Position numbers and translations under genes: made by a program. This document shows positions 2,832 through 49,918 of a stretch of DNA of 64,000 nucleotides, piece by piece. Origin of the DNA: Escherichia phage TrudiRoth; sequence record MZ501109; one strand, 5' to 3'. Position 1 is the stretch's first letter. Each line of letters begins with the position of its first letter. The notes beneath the pieces were generated by a model. The model searched no databases and had not been told where the DNA came from. It saw only the letters and a program-made list of their open reading frames with translations.

Positions 2832-2904
2832 ATATTTGTAAGTTGATAAACAAGATCTTTTTGTTGATCCTCTGTTAGCGAAGTACACTATAGGAGTGTT
2901 ATTT

Positions 2905-3657
2905 ATGGGAAAAGCACGTCAAAAAAGAGAGAACCGCAATGGTTCAAGAAAGCGTGGCAACAAGTATGAGAGTAACGTAATTCAAGCAGATTTCTCTGGT
3001 GATTACGCCAATCCAGTTGCTAAATCCCTAGTTGGTAAAAACCGTGAGCAAAAATCATATATCAATATGATCAAGAACAACACAGTGACTGTGGGTATTG
3101 GTGAACCAGGTACTGGTAAAACCTTTATTCCGTCCGTTCTTGCAGCTCAGGAACTCGTAGACATTCACTCAGATATTGAGCAAGTGATCCTCGTGCGTCC
3201 GAACGAACCTCTAGGTAAATCTCTTGGTATGCTCCCAGGTGATCTGGCAGAAAAGCTAGAGCCTTGGTTGGAACCAATAACCGATGGTATGAAATGGGCA
3301 ATCGGTGATCACGCCTACAAAGGATATGTCGAACGTCAGAAAATTAAATTCCTGGCTATCGAACATGCCCGTGGCCGAACTTTCAACAACTCCTATGTAA
3401 TTGTCGATGAAGCTCAGAATATCTCCGTTGAAGCAATGATCTGTCTCCTGACTCGTGTAGGACAAGATTGTCGTTTAATTATCTGTGGGGATATAGCTCA
3501 GAAAGACATCAAGGGTGATTCAGGTCTAGCACTTCTTATGGAAGTCTATGAGAAGTACGAAAACTCTCCTTTCTCTATGATCGAACTGATCGACAACGTT
3601 CGCTCACCAGAGTCTAAAGCATTCTACGATATCTTTAAGGATATGGGGAAGGTGTAA
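2905..3657 (+). CDS. phoH: PhoH-like ATPase
   Basis: Walker A GEPGTGKTF and Walker B VIVDEAQN; ORF opens at GTG 2896, ATG 2905 follows RBS TAGGAG. Confidence 0.85.
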   Translation: MGKARQKRENRNGSRKRGNKYESNVIQADFSGDYANPVAKSLVGKNREQKSYINMIKNNTVTVGIGEPGTGKTFIPSVLAAQELVDIHSDIEQVILVRPNEPLGKSLGMLPGDLAEKLEPWLEPITDGMKWAIGDHAYKGYVERQKIKFLAIEHARGRTFNNSYVIVDEAQNISVEAMICLLTRVGQDCRLIICGDIAQKDIKGDSGLALLMEVYEKYENSPFSMIELIDNVRSPESKAFYDIFKDMGKV

Positions 3658-9965: not shown

Positions 9966-10544
9966 ATGACAGCCATAGTAGCATTTAAATATAAAGATAA
10001 AGTATACTTAGCCGGTGATCGTATGGGTTCTAATGGCTATACGAAACTGCTGGTTAAAAATCCGAAAGTATTCAAAATCTCTGATGATTTGTGCTTCGGA
10101 TACACTAGTTCCTTCTACATGGGACAATTACTAGAGCATAGCTTTACTGTACCACCACGTTTAGCAGATATTTCTGATGATAAATATTTATATACGGAAA
10201 TAGTACCTAAATTACGTGATATGTTTAACCAGAAAGATTTTGGCGAAAAGAAAAATGAAAAATATGCTGAACCTAATCTGGGACAATTTATTATGCTCTA
10301 CAAAGGAAGAATCTTTATTTTCCAATCTAATGCTTCTATTCTAGAAGTTGAATATGCCGGTGTAGGCTGTGGAGGAGAAGATGTACTTTCCAGTATTCGT
10401 ACAGGTTTAGCTATTGCGGATTGTCGAGCCACAGATTTAGATGTAGATGATATATTTGAAATCATTGATCTGGCTTTTACGCATTGTGCAGATTATATGT
10501 GTGGTGTATCTTCTCAACATGATATTTTAGTAATTGGAGAATAA
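9966..10544 (+). CDS. HslV/proteasome-like Ntn-hydrolase family protein (putative)
   Basis: N-terminus MTAIVAFKYKDKVYLAGDRMGSNG resembles HslV TTIV..AGD; AGVGCGG resembles the GSGG loop; RBS present. Confidence 0.5.
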   Translation: MTAIVAFKYKDKVYLAGDRMGSNGYTKLLVKNPKVFKISDDLCFGYTSSFYMGQLLEHSFTVPPRLADISDDKYLYTEIVPKLRDMFNQKDFGEKKNEKYAEPNLGQFIMLYKGRIFIFQSNASILEVEYAGVGCGGEDVLSSIRTGLAIADCRATDLDVDDIFEIIDLAFTHCADYMCGVSSQHDILVIGE

Positions 10545-18107: not shown

Positions 18108-19052
18108 ATGTTTACTAAAAACACTAAAGAACTGACTTCCGATCAAAAAGTAATTCGTACTATTAAACGTTGGGGCGTTGGTGCTGTAGTTGGTCTTGGC
18201 GCTCTTATTCTGGCTCTCAATTCCTATACAGTTGTTCAGGACGGTACGGTTAAAACTCAGACTTTCCTGGGTAAAGTTAGTCCTAATCCTGTATTGCCGG
18301 GGTTCCATATTGTCAACCCATTCGCCTCTTTTGATACTTTTAGTACGAAAGATATTTCTATGAAACTGGATAAACTTCAGGTTCCTAGCCAGGATAAGTT
18401 TAAGTCCACTGTTGACATTACCGTTATGTTGCAGTTTGATGGTGCTAAAGCTCCTATGAACCGTGTTAACGCAGGTACTCAGGATCAAGCTCTGAACAAG
18501 TACGTTGAAGAGAAGATGCTATCTACGATTCGTGAGTTTGGTAAGTCTGTACCAAAAGCACAAGATCTGTTCGACGCTAAGATTCAGGCTCAACTGCAAA
18601 CTGCTATTCAGCAAGAAGTAGAAGAGTACGCGCGTCCTTATGGTTACACGGTTAAGCAAGTATTCCTTCAGGATATTACTCTGCCACCTGTAATCATGGA
18701 ACAGGTACAAAACACAAAAGTTCGTGAAGAACAAGTTAACGCCGCTAAAGCTGAATTGGCTCGTGTTGAACAAGAAGCACAGCAGAAAGTTAAGCAAGCT
18801 GAAGCTGATCGTTCTGCTCGTGAAAACATGGCAGTAGCTAACGAACGTGACGCAGATGCTAAACTGTACGCAGCTAAGAAAGAAGCTGAAGCTAACGCCG
18901 CGCTGCAACGTACCATTACTCCTGAAATGATTCGTTGGAAGCAGCTGGAAGTTGAAATGCTTCGTGCTGAAAAATACCAAGGTGGTGTACCGCAGACTGT
19001 TGTTGGTACTGGCTACGATGGTCAAATGATCATGGATATGCGTAACAAGTAA
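18108..19052 (+). CDS. SPFH/band-7 (prohibitin/HflK-like) membrane protein
   Basis: N-terminal TM segment, SPFH core and long Ala/Glu/Gln-rich coiled coil; strong terminator follows. Confidence 0.75.
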   Translation: MFTKNTKELTSDQKVIRTIKRWGVGAVVGLGALILALNSYTVVQDGTVKTQTFLGKVSPNPVLPGFHIVNPFASFDTFSTKDISMKLDKLQVPSQDKFKSTVDITVMLQFDGAKAPMNRVNAGTQDQALNKYVEEKMLSTIREFGKSVPKAQDLFDAKIQAQLQTAIQQEVEEYARPYGYTVKQVFLQDITLPPVIMEQVQNTKVREEQVNAAKAELARVEQEAQQKVKQAEADRSARENMAVANERDADAKLYAAKKEAEANAALQRTITPEMIRWKQLEVEMLRAEKYQGGVPQTVVGTGYDGQMIMDMRNK

Positions 19053-24776: not shown

Positions 24777-25358
24777 ATGCACGGAATATCCTTACCCATT
24801 CCAGGGTTTGAGGAGTACTTAGTAAGTTTGGATGGGTTAGTATTTAGTATCAAATCAAACAAAATACTAACCCAAATAACCAGTAATTACGGATACTTAT
24901 CTATACGTCTCCATAAAAATGGTCAACAGAGAAATACCGGTGTACATAGGATTTTAGCATGTGCATTTAAGAAATTACCAAGTCTAGACTCTGAACTAGA
25001 AGTTGACCATATTAACACAGACATTACTTATTGGGGTCTTAATAACTTACAAGTGCTCACAAAAGAGCAGCATCTAGAAAAGACTTTAAAAGATAAAGGA
25101 TTTAGTAAACTAAACCATGATAATTGTTGTAAGGATTGTGGTAAAGCTATTTCTTTAAAAGCTGAAAAATGTCAGGAGTGCTCTTCACATAAACCAAAAG
25201 ATATCTCTATAACTAAAGAAATAATCGAGGTTACAGTAAGAGAGCTAGGCTGGTCAGGTGCAGGGAGAAAGTTAAGTTATTCAGATAATGGGTTGCGTAA
25301 AAGATACACTTCTTTAGGAGGCAATCCTAAAGAACTTAAAAAGTTAAAGGTACTATAG
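24777..25358 (+). CDS. HNH homing endonuclease (second family)
   Basis: N-terminal GFEEYLVSLDGLVFS, HNH core HRILACAF...VDHINTD...NL and C-terminal Cys cluster; sits inside the tRNA array. Confidence 0.65.
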   Translation: MHGISLPIPGFEEYLVSLDGLVFSIKSNKILTQITSNYGYLSIRLHKNGQQRNTGVHRILACAFKKLPSLDSELEVDHINTDITYWGLNNLQVLTKEQHLEKTLKDKGFSKLNHDNCCKDCGKAISLKAEKCQECSSHKPKDISITKEIIEVTVRELGWSGAGRKLSYSDNGLRKRYTSLGGNPKELKKLKVL

Positions 25359-26590: not shown

Positions 26591-26755
26591 ATGAAATTAT
26601 TTCGTTTAAAAGTAAGTGATTTACGTTCTAGCAAAGATCGTAAGAAGTATCCACTAGCCCATTACGGTAAAGATGAAAACGAAGTGATGGCGGAATTTGG
26701 TATTAATCACCCTTACTTAAAAGTTTATTCTATTAAGGAAGTCTATGCTAATTAA
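26591..26755 (+). CDS. small hypothetical protein
   Basis: 54-aa ORF (below the track cutoff) translated by hand; RBS AAGGA. Confidence 0.3.
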   Translation: MKLFRLKVSDLRSSKDRKKYPLAHYGKDENEVMAEFGINHPYLKVYSIKEVYAN

Positions 26756-27218
26756 TAAAGTTTTAGCTGCCTTAAACCTTCCTGATAACTTCATTATAGA
26801 TGATAAGCTCATAAGAGCTTATATGAGCAAATATAACGAAATTTCAGGTAAAGAAGGTAAGTTAAAAACTTCAGAGTTTAGATTCTGTTATCGAATGGCA
26901 GCCTTAAATCTCTTAAAATATAAAAGGGAGCATAAAATACCTATAACGGAAGGTTTTGTATATGTAATTGGTAATCCAGCATGGCCAGGCATGTATAAAA
27001 TAGGTATGACTATAGATGTGAATGAGAGGTTAACAAGTTATCAAACTTATTCACCTAATAGAGACTACAAGCTATACCATTTCAGATTTTCGTCGGATAA
27101 AAGACGTACAGAGAAAGAATTACATAATCTTCTTAAAGATTATAGAGTATCTGGAGAATGGTTTGAAGTACCTGTACTAGATGCTTTTAAATTATTAGTA
27201 GAAAAATTGGATTGCTAG
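26745..27218 (+). CDS. T5orf172-domain (GIY-YIG superfamily) protein
   Basis: GFVYVIGNPAWPGMYKIGMTIDVNERL matches the GIY..YIG..R pattern. Confidence 0.65.
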   Translation: MLINKVLAALNLPDNFIIDDKLIRAYMSKYNEISGKEGKLKTSEFRFCYRMAALNLLKYKREHKIPITEGFVYVIGNPAWPGMYKIGMTIDVNERLTSYQTYSPNRDYKLYHFRFSSDKRRTEKELHNLLKDYRVSGEWFEVPVLDAFKLLVEKLDC

Positions 27219-28735: not shown

Positions 28736-29251
28736 ATGCTAACACAACAAGAATTAAAATCCGTGTTGTTATATAAACCAGATACTGGAGAGTTTTTCTG
28801 GAAATATAGATCTGATTTAGATAGTCAATGGAATAGTAAATATGCTGGAACTAGGGCAGGATTTATTAATGAACTAGGCTATTGGAAGATAACTCTAGGA
28901 AATACTAGCTGGTTAGCACATCGTCTAGCATTCTTATACATGACTGGGGAAATACCAGATCTAATTGACCACAAGGATCAAGATAAGTCCAATACTAAAT
29001 GGGATAACTTACGAATAGCCACTGTATCACAGAATCAGGCTAATGCTAAATTAAGGGTAGATAATACCTCTGGGTACAAAAATGTAACTTGGCATAAGCA
29101 AAGAAATAAGTGGAAAGTAGAAGTACGTAAAGATGGCAAACTCCATTATGGTGGACTTTTTACAGAACTAGATAAAGCTGTAAATAAAGCTAATAATCTT
29201 AGACGTGAGTTATTCGGGGAATTTGCAGTATATGAAGAGTTTATGGGGTAG
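28736..29251 (+). CDS. HNH homing endonuclease with AP2-like domain
   Basis: Shares AHRLAFLYMTGE, DHKDQDK, NLR and GYKNV motifs with 6460, 39902 and 42058. Confidence 0.7.
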   Translation: MLTQQELKSVLLYKPDTGEFFWKYRSDLDSQWNSKYAGTRAGFINELGYWKITLGNTSWLAHRLAFLYMTGEIPDLIDHKDQDKSNTKWDNLRIATVSQNQANAKLRVDNTSGYKNVTWHKQRNKWKVEVRKDGKLHYGGLFTELDKAVNKANNLRRELFGEFAVYEEFMG

Positions 29252-34954: not shown

Positions 34955-35653
34955 ATGAGAATCATTTCAAAGTTCAATGATGTATACGATTTGCAGAATA
35001 GTTTATTTGATCCAGATCGTGTCTGGGAGCGTAAAACTGAAGAGCTGCGAGTAAAAGTAACTGACGATGTAGAAAAGAATATCGTTCATAATCGTCAGGT
35101 GTTTCGTGAGGGTTCCTTATCCTTCCGTGGTGACTTCGAATACTCAGTAAATCCACTGTTTATTGCAGGCGAAGTTTACTGGTTACATGAACTGTCCTGC
35201 TGGCATCCAGCATTCAGTTTCAAAACGTTCAACATCGATGCTGTGTTCGATAAAATGGAAGAAATGGGATTACATGCCCGTTCTTACTTACTAGATAAGA
35301 ATCGTGGTGATGTTCGTGAAACCATGCGAGATATGTTGGTTGAAGCAAAACCTAAAGCAGAACGTATCTTATCTGAACTGCGCGTACCAATTGCATATGT
35401 GAAAGGTATTAAGAAGAACGATAACGATGATGTTCGTAACTTCGTAATTCAGACAAACATTCGTTTCCATCAGTCAGGTATTCCGTGGCAGGAAATTGAA
35501 AGTAACTTATACCGTTTACACCAAGTTCTCGAACAGTATATCTTCGGTGTACTAGGAACTGGTGAGCCTGATATGATTACCGTATCAGATAAAGACAGGT
35601 TAGCAGCACATGGATTTGATACAAAAACTTCTTTCAGGAATATGGCAAGGTAA
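34955..35653 (+). CDS. hypothetical protein
   Basis: 232 aa behind promoter 34895-34923. Confidence 0.5.
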   Translation: MRIISKFNDVYDLQNSLFDPDRVWERKTEELRVKVTDDVEKNIVHNRQVFREGSLSFRGDFEYSVNPLFIAGEVYWLHELSCWHPAFSFKTFNIDAVFDKMEEMGLHARSYLLDKNRGDVRETMRDMLVEAKPKAERILSELRVPIAYVKGIKKNDNDDVRNFVIQTNIRFHQSGIPWQEIESNLYRLHQVLEQYIFGVLGTGEPDMITVSDKDRLAAHGFDTKTSFRNMAR

Positions 35654-36059
35654 GTGGTATATCCTGGGAGCTGGTCTTGCGATAGGTATCGGATTCGGTG
35701 CTTATCACTTAGTTAATAAGGTTGAGACTCTAGCAGGTGATCTTGCAGTTGCGACTAAAAAGATCTCCACTCTAGAGACTTCTCTTAATAAAGTGAAAAC
35801 TGAGAGTGAACTTCGTGAGACTCGAATGAACCAGTATTTCACAATGAATAATATTTCGCAAGCAGATCTAGACAAAAAGATTAAGCAGTTAGATAAAGCT
35901 CTTAGTCGTCAAGATGTTATCGCTGCAAAGCCTGGATTGGTAACATTAATTGCTAAAAAGCAGAATAAAGAGTTCGAGGAAAGATTAGCGTGTTTAACTG
36001 GAAACTTGGAGTACTGCTCGCAGCCGCAATCACAATCACAGGCTGTGCAGAAGAAATAA
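35610..36059 (+). CDS. i-spanin-like protein (putative)
   Basis: N-terminal TM segment (WYILGAGLAIGIGFGAY) followed by coiled coil. Confidence 0.45.
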   Translation: MDLIQKLLSGIWQGKWYILGAGLAIGIGFGAYHLVNKVETLAGDLAVATKKISTLETSLNKVKTESELRETRMNQYFTMNNISQADLDKKIKQLDKALSRQDVIAAKPGLVTLIAKKQNKEFEERLACLTGNLEYCSQPQSQSQAVQKK

Positions 36060-36343
36060 AACCGGAGCCATCCCATGAGTTAAAGCAAGCTCATATAGAT
36101 TGGCCTAAAGGACTTCAGCCGTGTAGCTTTGATTTCAAATTCGAAAAGAAATTAGCTACAAATGGTGAAGATGGCGTAGTAGTTGTTGTACCTTACAAAG
36201 ATTGGAATGCAAAAGCAAAATGCGAGGAAGCAGTTTACTCTTACATTTCACGACTGACCGGTATGGTTTGCTTCTATCGTCAAGATTTACAAGAAAAACG
36301 TTGCTTAGTTTATTATCCACCCATTACAAATAGGAAAGATTAA
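35990..36343 (+). CDS. o-spanin-like lipoprotein (putative)
   Basis: Signal peptide with lipobox ITGC; start lies in the +1 frame inside the end of the i-spanin-like ORF. Confidence 0.5.
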   Translation: MFNWKLGVLLAAAITITGCAEEIKPEPSHELKQAHIDWPKGLQPCSFDFKFEKKLATNGEDGVVVVVPYKDWNAKAKCEEAVYSYISRLTGMVCFYRQDLQEKRCLVYYPPITNRKD

Positions 36344-37095
36344 TGTCAGTATTAGTCGGTTTACACGGTGAGGCTGGTGCGGGAAAAGATACCGTTGCAG
36401 AATTAATGATTGACTGGTGTAATGACACGTTCCCAACGTGTTTATCCCGTCGTTACAGTTTTGCTAAACCCGTTTACGAACTTGCATCCGTAATCCTCGG
36501 GGTAACTCCAGAGTTTCTGGGAGAGCGCAGGGGGAAAGAGATTGACCAATGGTTTACAGTCACACAATCTCAATTGGAGCGAGCTAGAGACATATGGTTT
36601 AAGTATGGTATCGATAAGTTTGAGGACTTCTCGTACGTTTGGCCTATTTTTGAAGGAAAATACCTTGATCCTCAGCAGTTAATTGGGCAAGCTGATGATG
36701 CGCTGTATAGCGTGTTTATCTCCCCAAGAAAAATGCTACAGCTTGTAGGTACTGAGTTAGGAAGGCAGCTGGTGCATGAACGCATTTGGCTCATAATTCT
36801 GGAGCAATCCATCGATAAAGACGACCCAGACGTCGCAATCGTTACCGATGTGCGTTTTCCCAATGAGGGAGAGCTAATCATGGAAACCAATACTCTAGAT
36901 ATGGATTCCATACTTATTAAGGTTGAATCTGGTATTACTAATAAGTATCGCATCGAGACAGATCATCCGTCTGAAAGCGGTATTCCTGAAAAATACATTT
37001 CTCATAAATTTGAGAATACCTTCAACGGACTTGATGCACTTCGTACCGATGTGTACCACTTCTGTGACTTAGAGCTAGAACCACTAGTTGGATAA
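36343..37095 (+). CDS. dnk: deoxynucleoside monophosphate kinase
   Basis: P-loop GLHGEAGAGKDT; 250 aa as for T5 Dnk. Confidence 0.7.
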   Translation: MSVLVGLHGEAGAGKDTVAELMIDWCNDTFPTCLSRRYSFAKPVYELASVILGVTPEFLGERRGKEIDQWFTVTQSQLERARDIWFKYGIDKFEDFSYVWPIFEGKYLDPQQLIGQADDALYSVFISPRKMLQLVGTELGRQLVHERIWLIILEQSIDKDDPDVAIVTDVRFPNEGELIMETNTLDMDSILIKVESGITNKYRIETDHPSESGIPEKYISHKFENTFNGLDALRTDVYHFCDLELEPLVG

Positions 37096-37107
37096 TTAAG
37101 GATCACT

Positions 37108-37707
37108 ATGACTAACAAGAAAGAAGAAAAGACTAACCTGTTTCACACTGTTCGCCAATCTAATGAGTATACCTTTTTCTTTGACGAAGAGTTAGGCTCA
37201 CCGGATGAGTATCGTGATCTATCAATGATACTGATGCAGGCTGGTGAAGATGATGAAATTAATCTGATGATTAATGGGCCTGGTGGTTACGTTGATACTG
37301 CTGCACAGCTATCTAACCTAATAGCTAACTGTCGTGGAACGGTTATTGGGCACCTGCTCGGTCCTAGTGCTTCTGCTTACTGCACAATCTTCCTATCTTG
37401 CCACGGTTGGGTTGTACATCCACATGCTACGCTTATGGGACATACGTTCTCTGGCGGATTCTGCGAGAAAGGTCAAGAAATCAAGAAAGCCTATGAATCC
37501 TACAACCAGTTTGTAGAAGATATGATGCTAGATATTTACTTTCCGTTCTTCTCTGTCGACGAAATCGAGGACATGGTAAAAGAGAATAAGAATATCTATC
37601 TCAACAGCAAAGAAATCAATAAGCGTATTGAAATTTTGGCGAATTATCGTAAAGAGCAGTGTAGTAAAGCTCAAGCCCCACATCCAGAAGAACATGGAGA
37701 AGTGTAA
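37108..37707 (+). CDS. ClpP-family serine peptidase-like protein
   Basis: INLMINGPGGYVDTAAQL resembles ClpP IYLYINSPGG; candidate catalytic Ser in GPSASAY and His in HPHATLMGH. Confidence 0.6.
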   Translation: MTNKKEEKTNLFHTVRQSNEYTFFFDEELGSPDEYRDLSMILMQAGEDDEINLMINGPGGYVDTAAQLSNLIANCRGTVIGHLLGPSASAYCTIFLSCHGWVVHPHATLMGHTFSGGFCEKGQEIKKAYESYNQFVEDMMLDIYFPFFSVDEIEDMVKENKNIYLNSKEINKRIEILANYRKEQCSKAQAPHPEEHGEV

Positions 37708-37715
37708 GTAGTTTT

Positions 37716-37750
37716 AAGCCAGAGTTTAACGACTCTGGCTTTTCTTTTGC
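37716..37750 (+). terminator. rho-independent terminator after the ClpP-like gene
   Basis: 10-bp stem AAGCCAGAGU/ACUCUGGCUU followed by UUUCUUUUG. Confidence 0.75.
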
Positions 37751-37863
37751 CTAAAATTCTTCTTGACAACGACAAAAAATTGTGCTCCAGAAGTGATCTT
37801 AAAAAACACATTGTAATTTTACTCTAGAATTAGTATAATGGTAGTGGTTAGAGGAGGTTACAA

Positions 37864-38520
37864 GTGGAAAAGTTTATACAACTATTAACGATACTGCTAC
37901 AAGAAGCGAAAGATCCAGCTTCACTACTAAAACGTCTGCTAACTATCTTAGTTGCTGTCATTATTTTCTTGTTTGTAAGTAACACTAGCGAGGTGATGTC
38001 ATTTTTAAAGACTTTCTCCACGTCTTCGGTTTTACAGGATGTTCAAACCCAAAGGATAGATAACTTTCCTAATGTAGCACGAGAAAAGAGTATGGTTCTT
38101 TTCTCCCAGACTGGTGCGGATGCCGTTTTTGTAGTAAAGTATAAACCAGATGCTATAAATGATTATTCAAACATTATTGCATGGGAAAGCAATGCGCAAT
38201 TGGATAGGGCTGACTTGGCCGATAAAGCAGTAAATAAGACGTCTGAACTTTATAGACGTCACCTGGAAGGCTTTAACTACGCTGCGGATTTAAGTGTAAA
38301 AGTAAATAAATATACGGGGTCAAATATACCAGCGTTTAAGAACATTACTTTTAATTACGTCTACACTTGTCCATATTTCAACCTAAATAATATCTATGCT
38401 GGATACATAGGTATTGCATGGAAGGATAAACCCGTAGATACAGCTGATTCGGAACAATTTAATGAGTACTTAGCAAAGCTCTGTTCCCCACAACGGAGAT
38501 CATTAGGTAGATCTATATGA
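37864..38520 (+). CDS. holin-like membrane protein (putative)
   Basis: 218 aa with one strong TM segment, immediately upstream of and overlapping the endolysin gene; GTG start after GGAGG. Confidence 0.5.
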   Translation: MEKFIQLLTILLQEAKDPASLLKRLLTILVAVIIFLFVSNTSEVMSFLKTFSTSSVLQDVQTQRIDNFPNVAREKSMVLFSQTGADAVFVVKYKPDAINDYSNIIAWESNAQLDRADLADKAVNKTSELYRRHLEGFNYAADLSVKVNKYTGSNIPAFKNITFNYVYTCPYFNLNNIYAGYIGIAWKDKPVDTADSEQFNEYLAKLCSPQRRSLGRSI

Positions 38521-38930
38521 GTTTTAAATTTGGTAAAAATAGCGAAAAACAATTAGCAACTGTTAAGCCCGAGCTACAGAAGGTAGCTCGTAGGGCTTTA
38601 GAATTATCTCCATATGATTTCATAATCGTACAGGGTATTCGTACAGTAGCACAAAGTGCCCAAAACATTGCTAATGGTACTTCATTTTTGAAAGACCCTA
38701 GCAAGAGTAAGCATGTAACTGGAGACGCTATCGATTTTGCACCATATATTAATGGAAAGATTGATTGGAAAGATCTGGAAGCATTTTGGGCTGTTAAGAA
38801 GGCTTTTGAACAAGCCGGTAAGGAACTTGGTGTCAAACTTCGTTTTGGTGCCGACTGGAATAGTTCTGGTGATTATCATGATGAGATCGATCGTGGTACT
38901 TACGACGGTGGTCACGTAGAATTAGTCTGA
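38517..38930 (+). CDS. lys: endolysin, L-alanyl-D-glutamate peptidase (T5-type)
   Basis: 137 aa with zinc-site motifs HVTGDAIDF and DGGHVEL; matches the T5 endolysin as I recall it. Confidence 0.85.
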   Translation: MSFKFGKNSEKQLATVKPELQKVARRALELSPYDFIIVQGIRTVAQSAQNIANGTSFLKDPSKSKHVTGDAIDFAPYINGKIDWKDLEAFWAVKKAFEQAGKELGVKLRFGADWNSSGDYHDEIDRGTYDGGHVELV

Positions 38931-39497: not shown

Positions 39498-39905
39498 ATG
39501 TCAGATCGTTACTATACTCAGATGGCTAACCATTACAATATGGCTCCGTATGAATTGAACATCGCATTACGTGACCTCGATTCACCAGAGCGTGCAAAAC
39601 TTGAGAAAAAGGCGGGAATTCGTATGTCTAGCAAGGGCAAGAAACTTACTCGTATTGACTTAAATACCATGTTAATGGAAGAGCTTGGCGTGAATATTGA
39701 AGGTCAGAAGTTGCCTCTCAATGTTCTTGAAACGATGCTGGATAAAGTCAAAAAGAAAACCTATAAGAAAGTACAAGTACCGGAAGGCAGGCTAAAAGCC
39801 CCTTATCAGGCTGCTGTATCTGAGTGCTTAGGTGCTACCTTAGATCTTAGCACTGCAACTGTTAAAGTGATGCGTGCGTTTTTAGAGGCAGTTAATAAAT
39901 TGTGA
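39498..39905 (+). CDS. hypothetical protein
   Basis: 135 aa behind promoter 39436-39464. Confidence 0.5.
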   Translation: MSDRYYTQMANHYNMAPYELNIALRDLDSPERAKLEKKAGIRMSSKGKKLTRIDLNTMLMEELGVNIEGQKLPLNVLETMLDKVKKKTYKKVQVPEGRLKAPYQAAVSECLGATLDLSTATVKVMRAFLEAVNKL

Positions 39906-40429
39906 TTACCCAAGAAAGATTGAAGGAGCTTCTAGAGTACAATCCAGATACAGGGATATTTATATGGAAGAGCCGAAAGATAGATAGAAGTGGTTTTAAC
40001 AAGCAATTCGCAGGAAAAGTTGCTGGCAATCCTCAAAATAACGGTTATATCAATATTACTGTTGATTCCGAAGTTCATGGGGCACATAGATTAGCTTTTC
40101 TTTACATGGAAGGCTATATGCCTGCAAGGGTAGACCACGAAAACATGGTTAGGTCTGATAACAAATGGCTTAACCTACGAGAAGCTACAGTCTCTCAAAA
40201 TGGTGCTAATGCGTTAAAGTATTCTAACAATAGTTCTGGATATAAGAACGTATACTGGACAAAGAAAACGTGTAAATGGCAAGTACAGGTTATGAAAGAT
40301 GGTAAATCCTACTCGGGAGGATACTTCACAAACCTCAAAGATGCTGTAGAAACTGCCAATGAGTTAAGATTTGAATTATTTGGGGAATTTGCCCTATATG
40401 AACCATTTAAAGGAGATAAACATGAGTAA
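39902..40429 (+). CDS. HNH homing endonuclease with AP2-like domain
   Basis: AHRLAFLYMEGYMP, DHENMVRSDNKWLNLREAT and GYKNVYW; paralog of 6460, 28736 and 42058. Confidence 0.7.
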   Translation: MITQERLKELLEYNPDTGIFIWKSRKIDRSGFNKQFAGKVAGNPQNNGYINITVDSEVHGAHRLAFLYMEGYMPARVDHENMVRSDNKWLNLREATVSQNGANALKYSNNSSGYKNVYWTKKTCKWQVQVMKDGKSYSGGYFTNLKDAVETANELRFELFGEFALYEPFKGDKHE

Positions 40430-48475: not shown

Positions 48476-49197
48476 GTATAAAAAAGAATTTAGCAGAGAT
48501 TATTAAGTTAGCTAGAGCTTGTAATGGAAAGAATGTTTCCGAACTTAATGAGTTAGAAGCTCATGCAGTAGCATTTTGTGCAGAGTTTTATCCAGCATAT
48601 ATTAATGCTAGTGGGCAACCTAAATATAATAAAGATGCAGAAGAAGTCACATTAGCCCCTTCATACATTAGCTTACGTCGTCTAATTCAAACTATTGATC
48701 CGACTATTAAAGGATTCTCAGCGGATTCATTCCATGTGTTTGCAGATGTAGAACTTCCACATTTTAAGGAAGCAAATGCAAAGTCAGCATTAGAATGTTA
48801 TCCAAATATTTTAATGGTTCCACAAAAGCAATGTAAATACGATCATCTTCCTAGACTTATTAAAAAGGTAGAACCTCCTTATTCTTCCTTATCTGAATTA
48901 AAGCTAGGGATTGTATCTACTCTTACGCAAGTTCATCTAAGTTTAGTTGATGACAATGTTACTTCTAATCCTATTCTAGATGCCGCACATTATGAAATTC
49001 TACGTGACCCTGAGCAAGCTAGAAAAGTTGCAAAGTCAGTTAAGTTTGATATCTCAACAATTCTTGACATTGAACAAGAAACGAGACCTAGAGGAAGTGT
49101 GGATTATTCTGCGCTTAATTCTGAAGCATCTTATTTAGCGACATTCCTTTTTATGGCATCGAAAGGAGTTATTCTAAAGGTTAACAAAGATGGATGA
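48472..49197 (+). CDS. hypothetical protein
   Basis: 241-aa ORF. Confidence 0.5.
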   Translation: MSIKKNLAEIIKLARACNGKNVSELNELEAHAVAFCAEFYPAYINASGQPKYNKDAEEVTLAPSYISLRRLIQTIDPTIKGFSADSFHVFADVELPHFKEANAKSALECYPNILMVPQKQCKYDHLPRLIKKVEPPYSSLSELKLGIVSTLTQVHLSLVDDNVTSNPILDAAHYEILRDPEQARKVAKSVKFDISTILDIEQETRPRGSVDYSALNSEASYLATFLFMASKGVILKVNKDG

Positions 49198-49918
49198 TTT
49201 ACGTAGTGAAATTAATAAAAACCTAAGAGAGGAAGCCAGGAGGTTTCCTCTCAAAAACTTTTTAAAGTCAAACGGTTCTACTAATATTACAAAGATTAGG
49301 CAGCTTCATCCAGACTTCCAACAAGAGGCATTAAATCTTATCTTTATTAAGAAAGCATTGAAAGTCCAAAAGGAAGAGTATGGGTATGAAAGAGTTAACT
49401 ATAAAACAGCTACTCAATTAGTAGAGATTTGGTGTTACAAACATCAAGGCTATTTTATGCAAACAGCTAGATCCCATCTAGAAGGGCACGGTTGTTTACA
49501 ATGTGCTAGAGAAAGCAATCTCAATACACCTATCGAGAAACCGGAAATAGATGAGGATGTTCAGTTTCCCACCTATCTCTATATCTTCTCTAATAAGGAT
49601 CAGTCTAGGAAGAAATTAAAGACGAAGATTGGAGTTTCTAGAGAGCCACATCAAAGGTTTAAGAATCTAGAATATGATAAACTGCGTGTGCCGGGTTTCG
49701 AAGATATGGAAGTATTTGGTATATATCAGTATAAGAAAGGATCTAAAGAACTTGCTTATAAAATGGAACATCAAGCACATAAATTTTTCGAGAGCAGATT
49801 TGCTAATCATTATAAATTCGATGGAGCAAAAGAGATATTCAACGTTAAGGCTGTGGAGGCAGAAGAATATTTATTAAGTCAAGGATGCATAAAAATTTAC
49901 CCAACTCCAAACTCATGA
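49190..49918 (+). CDS. zinc-finger plus GIY-YIG/T5orf172-like protein
   Basis: N-terminal Cys/His cluster (HQGYF...HLEGHGCLQCA) and C-terminal TYLYIFSN...KIGVSREPHQR. Confidence 0.5.
   Translation: MDDLRSEINKNLREEARRFPLKNFLKSNGSTNITKIRQLHPDFQQEALNLIFIKKALKVQKEEYGYERVNYKTATQLVEIWCYKHQGYFMQTARSHLEGHGCLQCARESNLNTPIEKPEIDEDVQFPTYLYIFSNKDQSRKKLKTKIGVSREPHQRFKNLEYDKLRVPGFEDMEVFGIYQYKKGSKELAYKMEHQAHKFFESRFANHYKFDGAKEIFNVKAVEAEEYLLSQGCIKIYPTPNS

What the first reader, a model, noticed from the sequence alone, without database searches (positions are those of the whole stretch)
37108..37707. ClpP-family peptidase-like gene between dnk and the lysis cassette
The protein carries a ClpP-like Gly-rich motif (INGPGGYV) and candidate Ser/His residues but is not in a capsid-gene context, so it is unlikely to be the prohead protease. 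Together with the HslV-like protein the phage may encode two protease-related proteins in its early region.
Basis: inference. Interest (0 to 1): 0.4.

Follow-up and report, generated by a model that had tools for sequence, protein, structure and literature searches.

The report
T5-type phage ClpP-like early peptidase
This is a real, strongly conserved gene for a ClpP-fold serine peptidase that T5-like phages carry in their early region, separate from their capsid-maturation protease; it is already annotated in hundreds of phage genomes, but nobody knows what it does.

The parts
37108..37707 (+). CDS for a 199-aa ClpP-fold (S14-family) peptidase-like protein, ortholog of T5 gene T5.042 and member of PHROG 1827
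37098..37102 (+). Shine-Dalgarno-like AAGGA, 5 nt before the ATG and 2 nt after the dnk stop codon (37093..37095)
   Evidence: Read directly from the sequence.
37270..37293 (+). INGPGGYV (residues 55-62), equivalent to the ClpP 'INSPGG' oxyanion-hole loop; G59 and G60 are 100% conserved
   Evidence: Alignments to ClpP chains and column statistics on 168 relatives.
37372..37374 (+). Ser89 codon (tct), aligned with the ClpP catalytic Ser (E. coli precursor S111)
   Evidence: Conserved in 100% of relatives.
37441..37443 (+). His112 codon (cat), aligned with the ClpP catalytic His (E. coli precursor H136)
   Evidence: Conserved in 99% of relatives.
37591..37593 (+). Asn162 codon (aat) at the position of the ClpP catalytic Asp (E. 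coli precursor D185). It is Asn only in the T5-like clade; the wider family has Asp in 81% and Glu in 10%
   Evidence: HMMER alignments to 3q7h, MAFFT alignment with E. coli ClpP and the cross-tabulation. T5.042 also has Asn here.
37465..37467 (+). Glu120 codon (gag) in the Gly-rich handle strand (GGFCEKG). The family consensus is Gly (91%). Among full-length sequences Glu occurs only together with Asn162; the truncated P0010 also has it
37716..37751 (+). Intrinsic-terminator-like hairpin (11-bp stem) plus T-run, 9 nt after the stop codon; it ends the dnk-clp transcription unit
   Evidence: Scan. The T5 record annotates a terminator at the same position after T5.042.
37811..37839 (+). Sigma-70-like promoter (TTGTAA-17-TATAAT) for the downstream holin/endolysin operon. 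It is not part of the clp unit but marks its boundary
   Evidence: Scan. The T5 record annotates a promoter between T5.042 and the holin.
36343..37095 (+). dnk (dNMP kinase), the upstream gene, separated from clp by 12 nt and co-oriented with it
   Evidence: Pfam DNMK and annotations of beppo and T5.

Best explanation
The gene encodes a phage-lineage ClpP-fold serine peptidase (MEROPS S14 / Pfam PF00574; PHROG 1827). It is the last gene of an early transcription unit that also holds the spanin genes and dnk, and it is separated by a terminator and a promoter from the holin/endolysin operon.

Shown:
- The fold is ClpP, with the head domain and the long handle helix.
- Ser89 and His112 occupy the nucleophile and base positions.
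- The oxyanion loop is intact.
- The gene is under strong purifying selection.
- It is distinct from the S78 prohead protease.

Inferred:
- It assembles into ClpP-like rings.
- It acts as a self-compartmentalised peptidase without a host AAA+ unfoldase. It lacks the N-terminal axial gate and helix A, and most of the hydrophobic pocket that binds the IGF/LGF loops of ClpX/ClpA.
- An ungated pore would admit peptides or unfolded chains directly.
- In the T5 clade the triad is Ser-His-Asn, with a clade-specific Glu120 in the handle strand. By analogy with Listeria ClpP1 this suggests low intrinsic activity that depends on the assembly state.

Its substrate and its role in infection remain unknown. 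Possibilities include turnover of host or early phage proteins, or peptide recycling.
For: - Family and fold.
- Catalytic Ser/His alignment and conservation.
- Asn at the Asp position, always together with Glu120.
- Missing N-terminal region: only 19 low-confidence, poorly conserved residues precede strand 1. In the alignment E. coli residues 1-29 have no counterpart and 30-43 are only sparsely matched.
- Docking-pocket positions (E. coli precursor numbering): Y74, F96, I104, L128 and A66 align with N52, N74, H82, H104 and Q44, and the family consensus at these and other pocket positions is mostly polar.
- ClpP equivalog HMMs fail: 15-21 bits against cutoffs of 228-347.
- No AAA+ unfoldase among the neighbours or the larger ORFs of the window.
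- Operon structure.
- Purifying selection.
- Non-structural, early or nucleotide-metabolism context in six other phage lineages.
- Separate S78 prohead protease.
- Listeria ClpP1 as a Ser-His-Asn precedent, and N-terminally truncated PpClpP1 with a wide pore: PMC9765437 and PMC12900304.
Against: - No biochemical or genetic data exist for any member. The BF23 paper states that the function is unknown (PMC10644984).
- Oligomeric state was not predicted.
- The pocket and gate arguments rest on sequence alignment at about 18% identity, and the model coordinates could not be inspected.
- The handle strand has low model confidence (pLDDT 57-59).
- Asn in place of Asp might mean weak or no activity.
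- Detection of the BF23 ortholog in a virion preparation hints at a different, particle-associated role.
Confidence: 0.55

Rival explanations
1. It is what the database label says: a proteolytic subunit that docks to host ClpX or ClpA and forms an ATP-dependent protease with altered specificity.
For: - ClpP fold, with Ser and His conserved.
- Size similar to ClpP.
- Many GenBank records name it this way.
Against: - NCBIfam ClpP equivalogs score 15-21 bits against cutoffs of 228-347.
- The N-terminal axial loop and helix A, which contact the unfoldase, are absent.
- Most positions of the IGF-loop pocket are polar.
- The protein is closer to phage-type ClpP-like proteases (PHROG 1684, 75 bits) than to cellular ClpP (31 bits).
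Confidence: 0.1
2. It forms a heptameric ring that stacks on a host ClpP ring, as Listeria ClpP1 does with ClpP2. This would retune or poison host ClpXP/ClpAP during early infection.
For: - The Ser-His-Asn triad is the hallmark of Listeria ClpP1, which is active only in the ClpP1/2 heterocomplex (PMC9765437).
- The handle helix and the Gly-rich strand are retained.
Against: - Most of the wider family keeps Asp, so the Asn is a clade-specific change and not a family trait.
- Handle sequence identity to E. coli ClpP is low.
Confidence: 0.1
3. It is a catalytically inactive ClpP-fold protein (a pseudo-protease) that serves as a scaffold, chaperone or binding protein.
For: - Asp is replaced by Asn in the T5 clade.
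- The invariant features E152, R173, F147 and K121 are not ClpP catalytic residues.
Against: - Ser and His remain 100% and 99% conserved and the oxyanion loop is intact, also within the Asn clade. A dead enzyme would not be expected to keep them.
- Ser-His-Asn ClpPs can be active (PMC9765437, PMC12900304).
Confidence: 0.1
4. It is a particle-associated auxiliary protease: packaged into or bound to proheads or virions, perhaps injected or acting on internal proteins.
For: - The BF23 ortholog (ORF45) was detected by MS/MS in a virion preparation with 3 peptides, at an intensity similar to the tail terminator and tail completion proteins (PMC10644984).
- The closest HMM relatives outside the family are ClpP-type head maturation proteases.
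- Some orthologs carry long acidic C-terminal tails reminiscent of scaffolding segments.
Against: - The virions were only PEG-precipitated, and DHFR was co-detected, so a large soluble oligomer could have co-precipitated.
- The gene is in the early region under an early-type promoter arrangement.
- T5-like phages have a dedicated S78 prohead protease.
Confidence: 0.1
5. It is an NfeD-like protease that processes the phage-encoded SPFH/stomatin-like protein (18108..19052).
For: - Weak NfeD1b_N matches (E 0.0035 here, down to 1e-5 in relatives).
- The phage encodes an SPFH protein.
Against: - The NfeD score is far below its cutoff (17 against 40 bits), and the structural match is weaker than to ClpP.
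- The genes are 18 kb apart.
- The SPFH gene occurs in RB43-like and Aeromonas phages, and the ClpP-like gene occurs in Pakpunavirus, Barbavirus and Vibrio phages. The organism tallies overlap mainly in T5-likes.
- His, not Lys, is the conserved base.
Confidence: 0.04

Closest known systems
T5 gene T5.042 product ('ATP-dependent protease') and its orthologs in Demerecviridae; PHROG 1827
   Same: - 88% identical over 199 aa to T5.042, and 100% identical to proteins of several deposited Salmonella and Escherichia phages.
- Same synteny: spanins, dnk, clp, terminator, promoter, holin, endolysin.
- Same Ser-His-Asn and Glu120.
   Different: Nothing of substance; this is the same gene. Its function has never been determined (PMC10644984).
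Bacterial ClpP (E. coli ClpP, PDB 1tyf/1yg6; S14.001)
   Same: - Ser and His at the same positions.
- The N-x-P-G-G oxyanion loop and the GG..G handle strand.
   Different: - About 15-21% identity.
- No N-terminal axial loop or helix A.
- Docking-pocket residues mostly polar.
- Asn instead of Asp.
- Fails the ClpP equivalog HMM cutoffs.
Listeria monocytogenes ClpP1 (PDB 4jcq, 4ryf)
   Different: LmClpP1 is a cellular paralog that pairs with ClpP2 in one cell. The phage protein has no known partner, and its wider family keeps Asp.
Pseudomonas plecoglossicida ClpP1 (PDB 9uxt)
   Different: It has Pro rather than Asn as the third residue, is a cellular protein, and shares 15% identity.
ClpP-related phage head maturation proteases (NF045542; PHROG 1684, 94)
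   Same: They are the closest HMM relatives outside its own family (PHROG 1684 at 1.2e-20; NF045542 at 41 bits).
   Different: - The score is below the family cutoff (41 against 120 bits).
- The gene is not next to the portal, scaffold or capsid genes.
- The phage lineage uses an S78 prohead protease instead.

Membership tests
Peptidase S14 / Pfam PF00574 CLP_protease (broad ClpP family) | HMM score above the curated gathering threshold | tested here: met
   31.1 bits against a cutoff of 20.2, E 2.6e-7. Relatives score 25-50 bits.
Peptidase S14 / Pfam PF00574 CLP_protease (broad ClpP family) | ClpP alpha/beta fold with handle helix, closer to ClpP than to S49 or crotonases | tested here: met
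   [not shown]
Peptidase S14 / Pfam PF00574 CLP_protease (broad ClpP family) | Catalytic Ser and His at the homologous positions | tested here: met
   S89 and H112 align with E. coli S111 and H136 (precursor numbering). They are conserved in 100% and 99% of 168 relatives.
Peptidase S14 / Pfam PF00574 CLP_protease (broad ClpP family) | Asp as the third triad residue | tested here: not met
   N162 is at the position of E. coli D185. The wider family has Asp in 81% and Glu in 10%; Asn occurs only in the T5-like clade. A Ser-His-Asn precedent exists in LmClpP1.
Canonical ATP-dependent Clp protease proteolytic subunit (NCBIfam TIGR00493, PRK00277 and related) | Equivalog or subfamily HMM cutoff | tested here: not met
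   15.2-20.6 bits against cutoffs of 228-347.
Canonical ATP-dependent Clp protease proteolytic subunit (NCBIfam TIGR00493, PRK00277 and related) | N-terminal axial loop and helix A that gate the pore and contact the unfoldase | tested here: not met
   Only 19 residues precede strand 1. They have pLDDT 42-60 and are not conserved in length or sequence. In the alignment, E. coli residues 1-29 have no counterpart and 30-43 are only sparsely matched.
Canonical ATP-dependent Clp protease proteolytic subunit (NCBIfam TIGR00493, PRK00277 and related) | Hydrophobic pocket for the IGF/LGF loops of ClpX/ClpA. The residue list is from my own knowledge of E. coli ClpP: mature L48, F49, A52, Y60, Y62, F82, I90, M92, F112, L114, L189 | tested here: not met
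   By alignment these positions are M40, I41, Q44, N52, M54, N74, H82, L84, V102, H104 and A178. The commonest residue in the family is polar or charged at 8 of the 11 positions.
Canonical ATP-dependent Clp protease proteolytic subunit (NCBIfam TIGR00493, PRK00277 and related) | Double-heptamer (tetradecamer) assembly | not testable with these tools
   No multimer prediction or experiment was available.
Canonical ATP-dependent Clp protease proteolytic subunit (NCBIfam TIGR00493, PRK00277 and related) | Partner AAA+ unfoldase encoded with it | tested here: not met
   None appears in the annotated neighbourhoods of beppo, T5 or seven other phages. None was found among the larger ORFs of the window that were scanned. 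A host unfoldase cannot be excluded this way.
ClpP-related phage head maturation protease (NF045542; PHROG 1684/94) | HMM cutoff | tested here: not met
   41.2 bits against a cutoff of 120. The PHROG 1684 match (1.2e-20) is far weaker than the match to its own family PHROG 1827 (2.1e-88).
ClpP-related phage head maturation protease (NF045542; PHROG 1684/94) | Location in the portal-protease-scaffold-capsid module, as the only prohead protease | tested here: not met
   The gene lies between dnk and the holin in the early region. In the 99%-identical beppo, an S78 protease lies between the portal and capsid genes.
S49 (SppA) and NfeD/STOPP proteases | HMM match above cutoff; Ser-Lys dyad | tested here: not met
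   [not shown]
PHROG 1827 (phage 'ATP-dependent protease' family) | Full-length profile match | tested here: met
   E 2.1e-88, 296 bits, residues 1-198 on profile positions 5-201 of 202.

The most novel reading that the evidence does not exclude
In T5-like phages the ClpP-like protein has a rewired active site: Ser89-His112-Asn162 with a clade-specific Glu120 in the ring-ring handle strand. It also lacks an unfoldase-docking surface. One reading is that it becomes active only on stacking against another ring, possibly a host ClpP heptamer. In that case the phage would cap or reprogram the host Clp machinery early in infection, a viral counterpart of the Listeria ClpP1/ClpP2 heterocomplex.
Probability: 0.07. 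Interest if true: 0.65.

Novelty: already known. Interest (0 to 1): 0.25.

Why it matters
The gene is conserved across hundreds of T5-like phages. Related genes sit in the early or nucleotide-metabolism regions of Pakpunavirus, Vequintavirinae, Barbavirus, KVP40-like and N4-like phages. The family has 532 clusters at 50% identity with E below 1e-30. No function has been assigned. The practical value of this analysis is a corrected annotation: it is a stand-alone ClpP-fold peptidase, and neither an "ATP-dependent Clp protease proteolytic subunit" nor a head maturation protease. The analysis also gives concrete mutagenesis targets (S89, H112, N162, E120). If the protein acts on host proteins or on host ClpP, it would be a new type of phage takeover factor. 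As it stands, this is an ordinary, already catalogued gene of unknown role.

Tried and rejected
- NfeD/stomatin pairing with the phage SPFH gene. Rejected because the NfeD score is below threshold, the genes are 18 kb apart, and the phage distributions appear to overlap mainly in T5-likes.\n- Functional linkage with the HslV-like gene at 9966..10544. Rejected because it is 27 kb away and found in only 195 phage records against 1303 for the ClpP-like gene.\n- Fusion of the ClpP-like protein with a holin in Vibrio T5-like phage D13, whose ortholog is 320 aa and abuts the endolysin. These found no functional or essentiality data for this gene. The only experimental mention is its detection in PEG-precipitated BF23 virions.\n- I could not measure distances in the AF2 model because coordinates are not exposed. 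The proximity of Glu120 or Asn162 to His112 is therefore untested.

Full report
**What is there.** The window comes from a T5-like phage. A 2.7-kb stretch around the finding is 99.0% identical to Salmonella phage beppo (Demerecviridae, Epseptimavirus). It matches 452 phage records, and 434 of them cover at least 80% of the stretch. The ORF at 37108..37707 (+) encodes 199 aa. Its ATG is preceded by AAGGA at 37098..37102 and lies 12 nt after the stop codon of dnk. The motif INGPGGYV is at residues 55-62. Pfam confirms the flanks: dnk (DNMK) at 36343..37095, a T-type holin (PF11031, E 8e-111) at 37864..38520, and an M15 endolysin at 38517..38930.

**It is a real gene.** It matches PHROG 1827 over its full length at E 2.1e-88. 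It is 100% identical to proteins of several deposited phages and 88% identical to T5 gene T5.042. dN/dS is 0.076 against T5 (dS 0.94) and 0.017 against beppo.

**Transcription context.**
- A terminator-like hairpin with a T-run lies at 37716..37751, directly after the stop codon.
- A TTGTAA-17-TATAAT promoter-like site lies at 37811..37839, before the holin.
- The curated T5 record annotates a terminator and a promoter at the equivalent places.
- In T5 the next annotated promoter upstream lies before T5.047. The unit would then be T5.047, hegF, the two spanin genes, dnk and T5.042.
- The ClpP-like gene is therefore the last gene of the dnk unit and is not part of the holin/endolysin operon.

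**Family and fold.**
- Pfam: CLP_protease scores 31.1 bits (cutoff 20.2). NfeD1b_N is below threshold (17.4 against 40). There is no S49 hit.
- Sequence search of PDB chains returns only ClpP, apart from one chance-level hit (enkurin, E 1.1). The best hit is Coxiella ClpP 3q7h at E 2.3e-5, or 6.9e-14 with a 16-sequence profile.
- An AlphaFold2 model has mean pLDDT 81.4 and pTM 0.75. It is weak at residues 1-15, 117-121 and 194-199.
- The top 50 Foldseek PDB hits to the model are all ClpP, with TM about 0.61-0.67.

The assignment is S14/ClpP.

**Catalytic residues.** HMMER alignments to ClpP chains and a MAFFT alignment with E. coli ClpP agree.
- Ser89 aligns with the nucleophile (E. coli precursor S111).
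- His112 aligns with the base (H136).
- Asn162 aligns with the triad Asp (D185).

I aligned the query with 167 relatives. Of these, 20 came from the word-indexed search and the rest from an exhaustive profile search. That search found 13,324 cluster representatives at E below 0.001 and 532 at E below 1e-30. In this set Ser is 100% conserved and His 99%. The third position is Asp in 81%, Glu in 10% and Asn in 5%.

The Asn variants are exactly the enterobacterial T5-like clade, which includes T5 itself. Every one of them also has Glu120 in the Gly-rich handle strand (GGFCEKG), where the family otherwise has Gly. The only other sequence with Glu120 is P0010, which is truncated before the triad position. 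This pairing occurs in one clade and so may reflect a single evolutionary event. It is suggestive, not statistical, evidence that the acidic group has been relocated.

A Ser-His-Asn triad is known from Listeria ClpP1. There it aligns into an active triad only when the ClpP1 ring pairs with ClpP2 (PMC9765437; also PMC12900304). LmClpP1 (4jcq) is one of the best structural matches and has the highest identity, at 22%.

**Why "ATP-dependent Clp protease proteolytic subunit" is an over-annotation.**
1. NCBIfam ClpP equivalog and subfamily models score 15-21 bits against cutoffs of 228-347.
2. Only 19 residues precede the first strand. They have low confidence and vary in length and sequence. The ClpP axial loop and helix A, which gate the pore and contact the unfoldase, have no counterpart.
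3. Eleven positions form the hydrophobic pocket for the IGF/LGF loops of ClpX/ClpA in E. coli ClpP (list from my own knowledge). Here they align with M40, I41, Q44, N52, M54, N74, H82, L84, V102, H104 and A178. The commonest residue in the family is polar or charged at 8 of the 11 positions.
4. No AAA+ unfoldase is encoded nearby, or among the larger ORFs I scanned.

These arguments rest on alignments at about 18% identity. The model coordinates could not be inspected.

**Not the prohead protease.**
- In beppo, a 210-aa Peptidase_S78 protein (E 9.6e-19) lies between the portal and capsid genes, about 80 kb away in the record.
- BF23 and T5 use this S78 maturase (PMC10644984).
- The ClpP-related head-maturation model NF045542 scores 41 bits against a cutoff of 120.
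- Even so, phage ClpP-type head proteases (PHROG 1684, 75 bits) are nearer relatives than cellular ClpP (31 bits).

**Context in other phages.** Relatives at 25-42% identity sit among early or nucleotide-metabolism genes in the lineages below. None sits beside portal or capsid genes, although the Nahantvirus copy lies near the large terminase gene.

| Phage lineage | Neighbouring genes |
|---|---|
| Pakpunavirus K8 | tRNAs, dCMP deaminase, ligase |
| Barbavirus | PhoH, Dam |
| Vequintavirinae W70 | NrdD/G, Dam |
| KVP40-like Straboviridae | between frd and uvsX |
| Schitoviridae (Nahantvirus) | small hypothetical genes; large terminase nearby on the opposite strand |
| Acinetobacter phage phiAB441 | near PhoH |
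| Vibrio T5-like phages | dnk, then the clp gene, then endolysin |

**What is known.** The only experimental mention I found is from BF23. Its ortholog (ORF45) was detected with 3 peptides in PEG-precipitated virions, and the authors state that its function is unknown (PMC10644984). DHFR was co-detected and no gradient purification was done. Co-precipitation of a large oligomer is therefore a plausible explanation. No essentiality or functional data were found.

**Mechanism.** The best-supported reading (confidence about 0.55) is an early-expressed, ring-forming ClpP-fold serine peptidase. It would work without an unfoldase and have an ungated pore. In the T5 clade its Ser-His-Asn(+Glu120) site is probably weak or dependent on assembly. 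Fold, catalytic Ser/His, selection, operon position and non-capsid context are shown. Ring assembly, unfoldase independence and activity are inferred. The substrate is unknown. The rivals, each at 0.1 or below, are:
- true ClpX/ClpA partner;
- hetero-ring with host ClpP;
- pseudo-protease;
- particle-associated protease;
- NfeD-like protease of the phage SPFH protein.

**The "two proteases" remark.** The HslV-like gene exists at 9966..10544 (Pfam Proteasome, E 1.8e-9). It is 27 kb away and occurs in only 195 phage records, about 124 of them close relatives. The ClpP-like gene occurs in 1303 records. The two genes are independent accessory and core genes, not a system.

**Verdict.** The gene is already known and widely, if loosely, annotated. 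The new details are the Asn/Glu120 signature, the missing gate and the missing docking pocket. Interest is modest (0.25).

Noticed in passing
window 9966..10544 (+): A 192-aa proteasome/HslV-like protein (Pfam PF00227, E 1.8e-9). tblastn finds it in only 195 phage records, about 124 of them close T5-like relatives, plus Aeromonas, Vibrio and jumbo coliphages. In the beppo annotation the region between thymidylate synthase and RNase H holds only small hypothetical ORFs and no HslV-like gene is named.
   Followed up: partly
window 18108..19052 (+): A 314-aa SPFH/band-7 (stomatin-like) protein (PF01145, E 2.9e-19). It is shared by T5-like phages and by RB43-like, Klebsiella and Aeromonas T4-like phages at up to 83% identity, which suggests exchange between unrelated virulent phage lineages. 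Some records annotate it as a lipoprotein.
   Followed up: partly
L010:2899-3861 (Vibrio phage D13, OZ196536.1): The Vibrio T5-like ortholog is 320 aa. It has a ClpP-like domain with Asp at the triad position, followed by a very acidic, low-complexity C-terminal tail of about 120 aa. Its gene overlaps the start of the endolysin gene, with no T-type holin in between.
   Followed up: partly
window 35610..36059 and 35990..36343 (+): The i-spanin and o-spanin genes lie upstream of dnk. The o-spanin has a lipobox-like ...ITITGC. By the T5 annotation they are in the same transcription unit as the ClpP-like gene, while the holin and endolysin are in the next unit. The lysis genes are therefore split by dnk and clp.
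   Followed up: no
L004 (Barba8A), L009 (phiAB441) and Alteromonas phage V22 (PMC7289586): A PhoH-like ATPase gene lies directly upstream of, or within 500 bp of, the ClpP-like gene in three unrelated phages. In the window, PhoH is 34 kb away (2896..3657). A possible recurrent PhoH-ClpP-like association was not tested statistically.
   Followed up: no
window 24777..25358, 28736..29251, 26745..27218, 39902..40429, 49190..49918: Several homing-endonuclease-like ORFs (HNH_3/NUMOD4, T5orf172/MUG113) are scattered through the tRNA and early regions, as is typical of T5-like genomes.
   Followed up: no
P0001: A 92%-identical copy is labelled 'Brucella melitensis' in NCBI and sits on a 115-kb contig. 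This is probably a T5-like phage contig mislabelled as bacterial.
   Followed up: no
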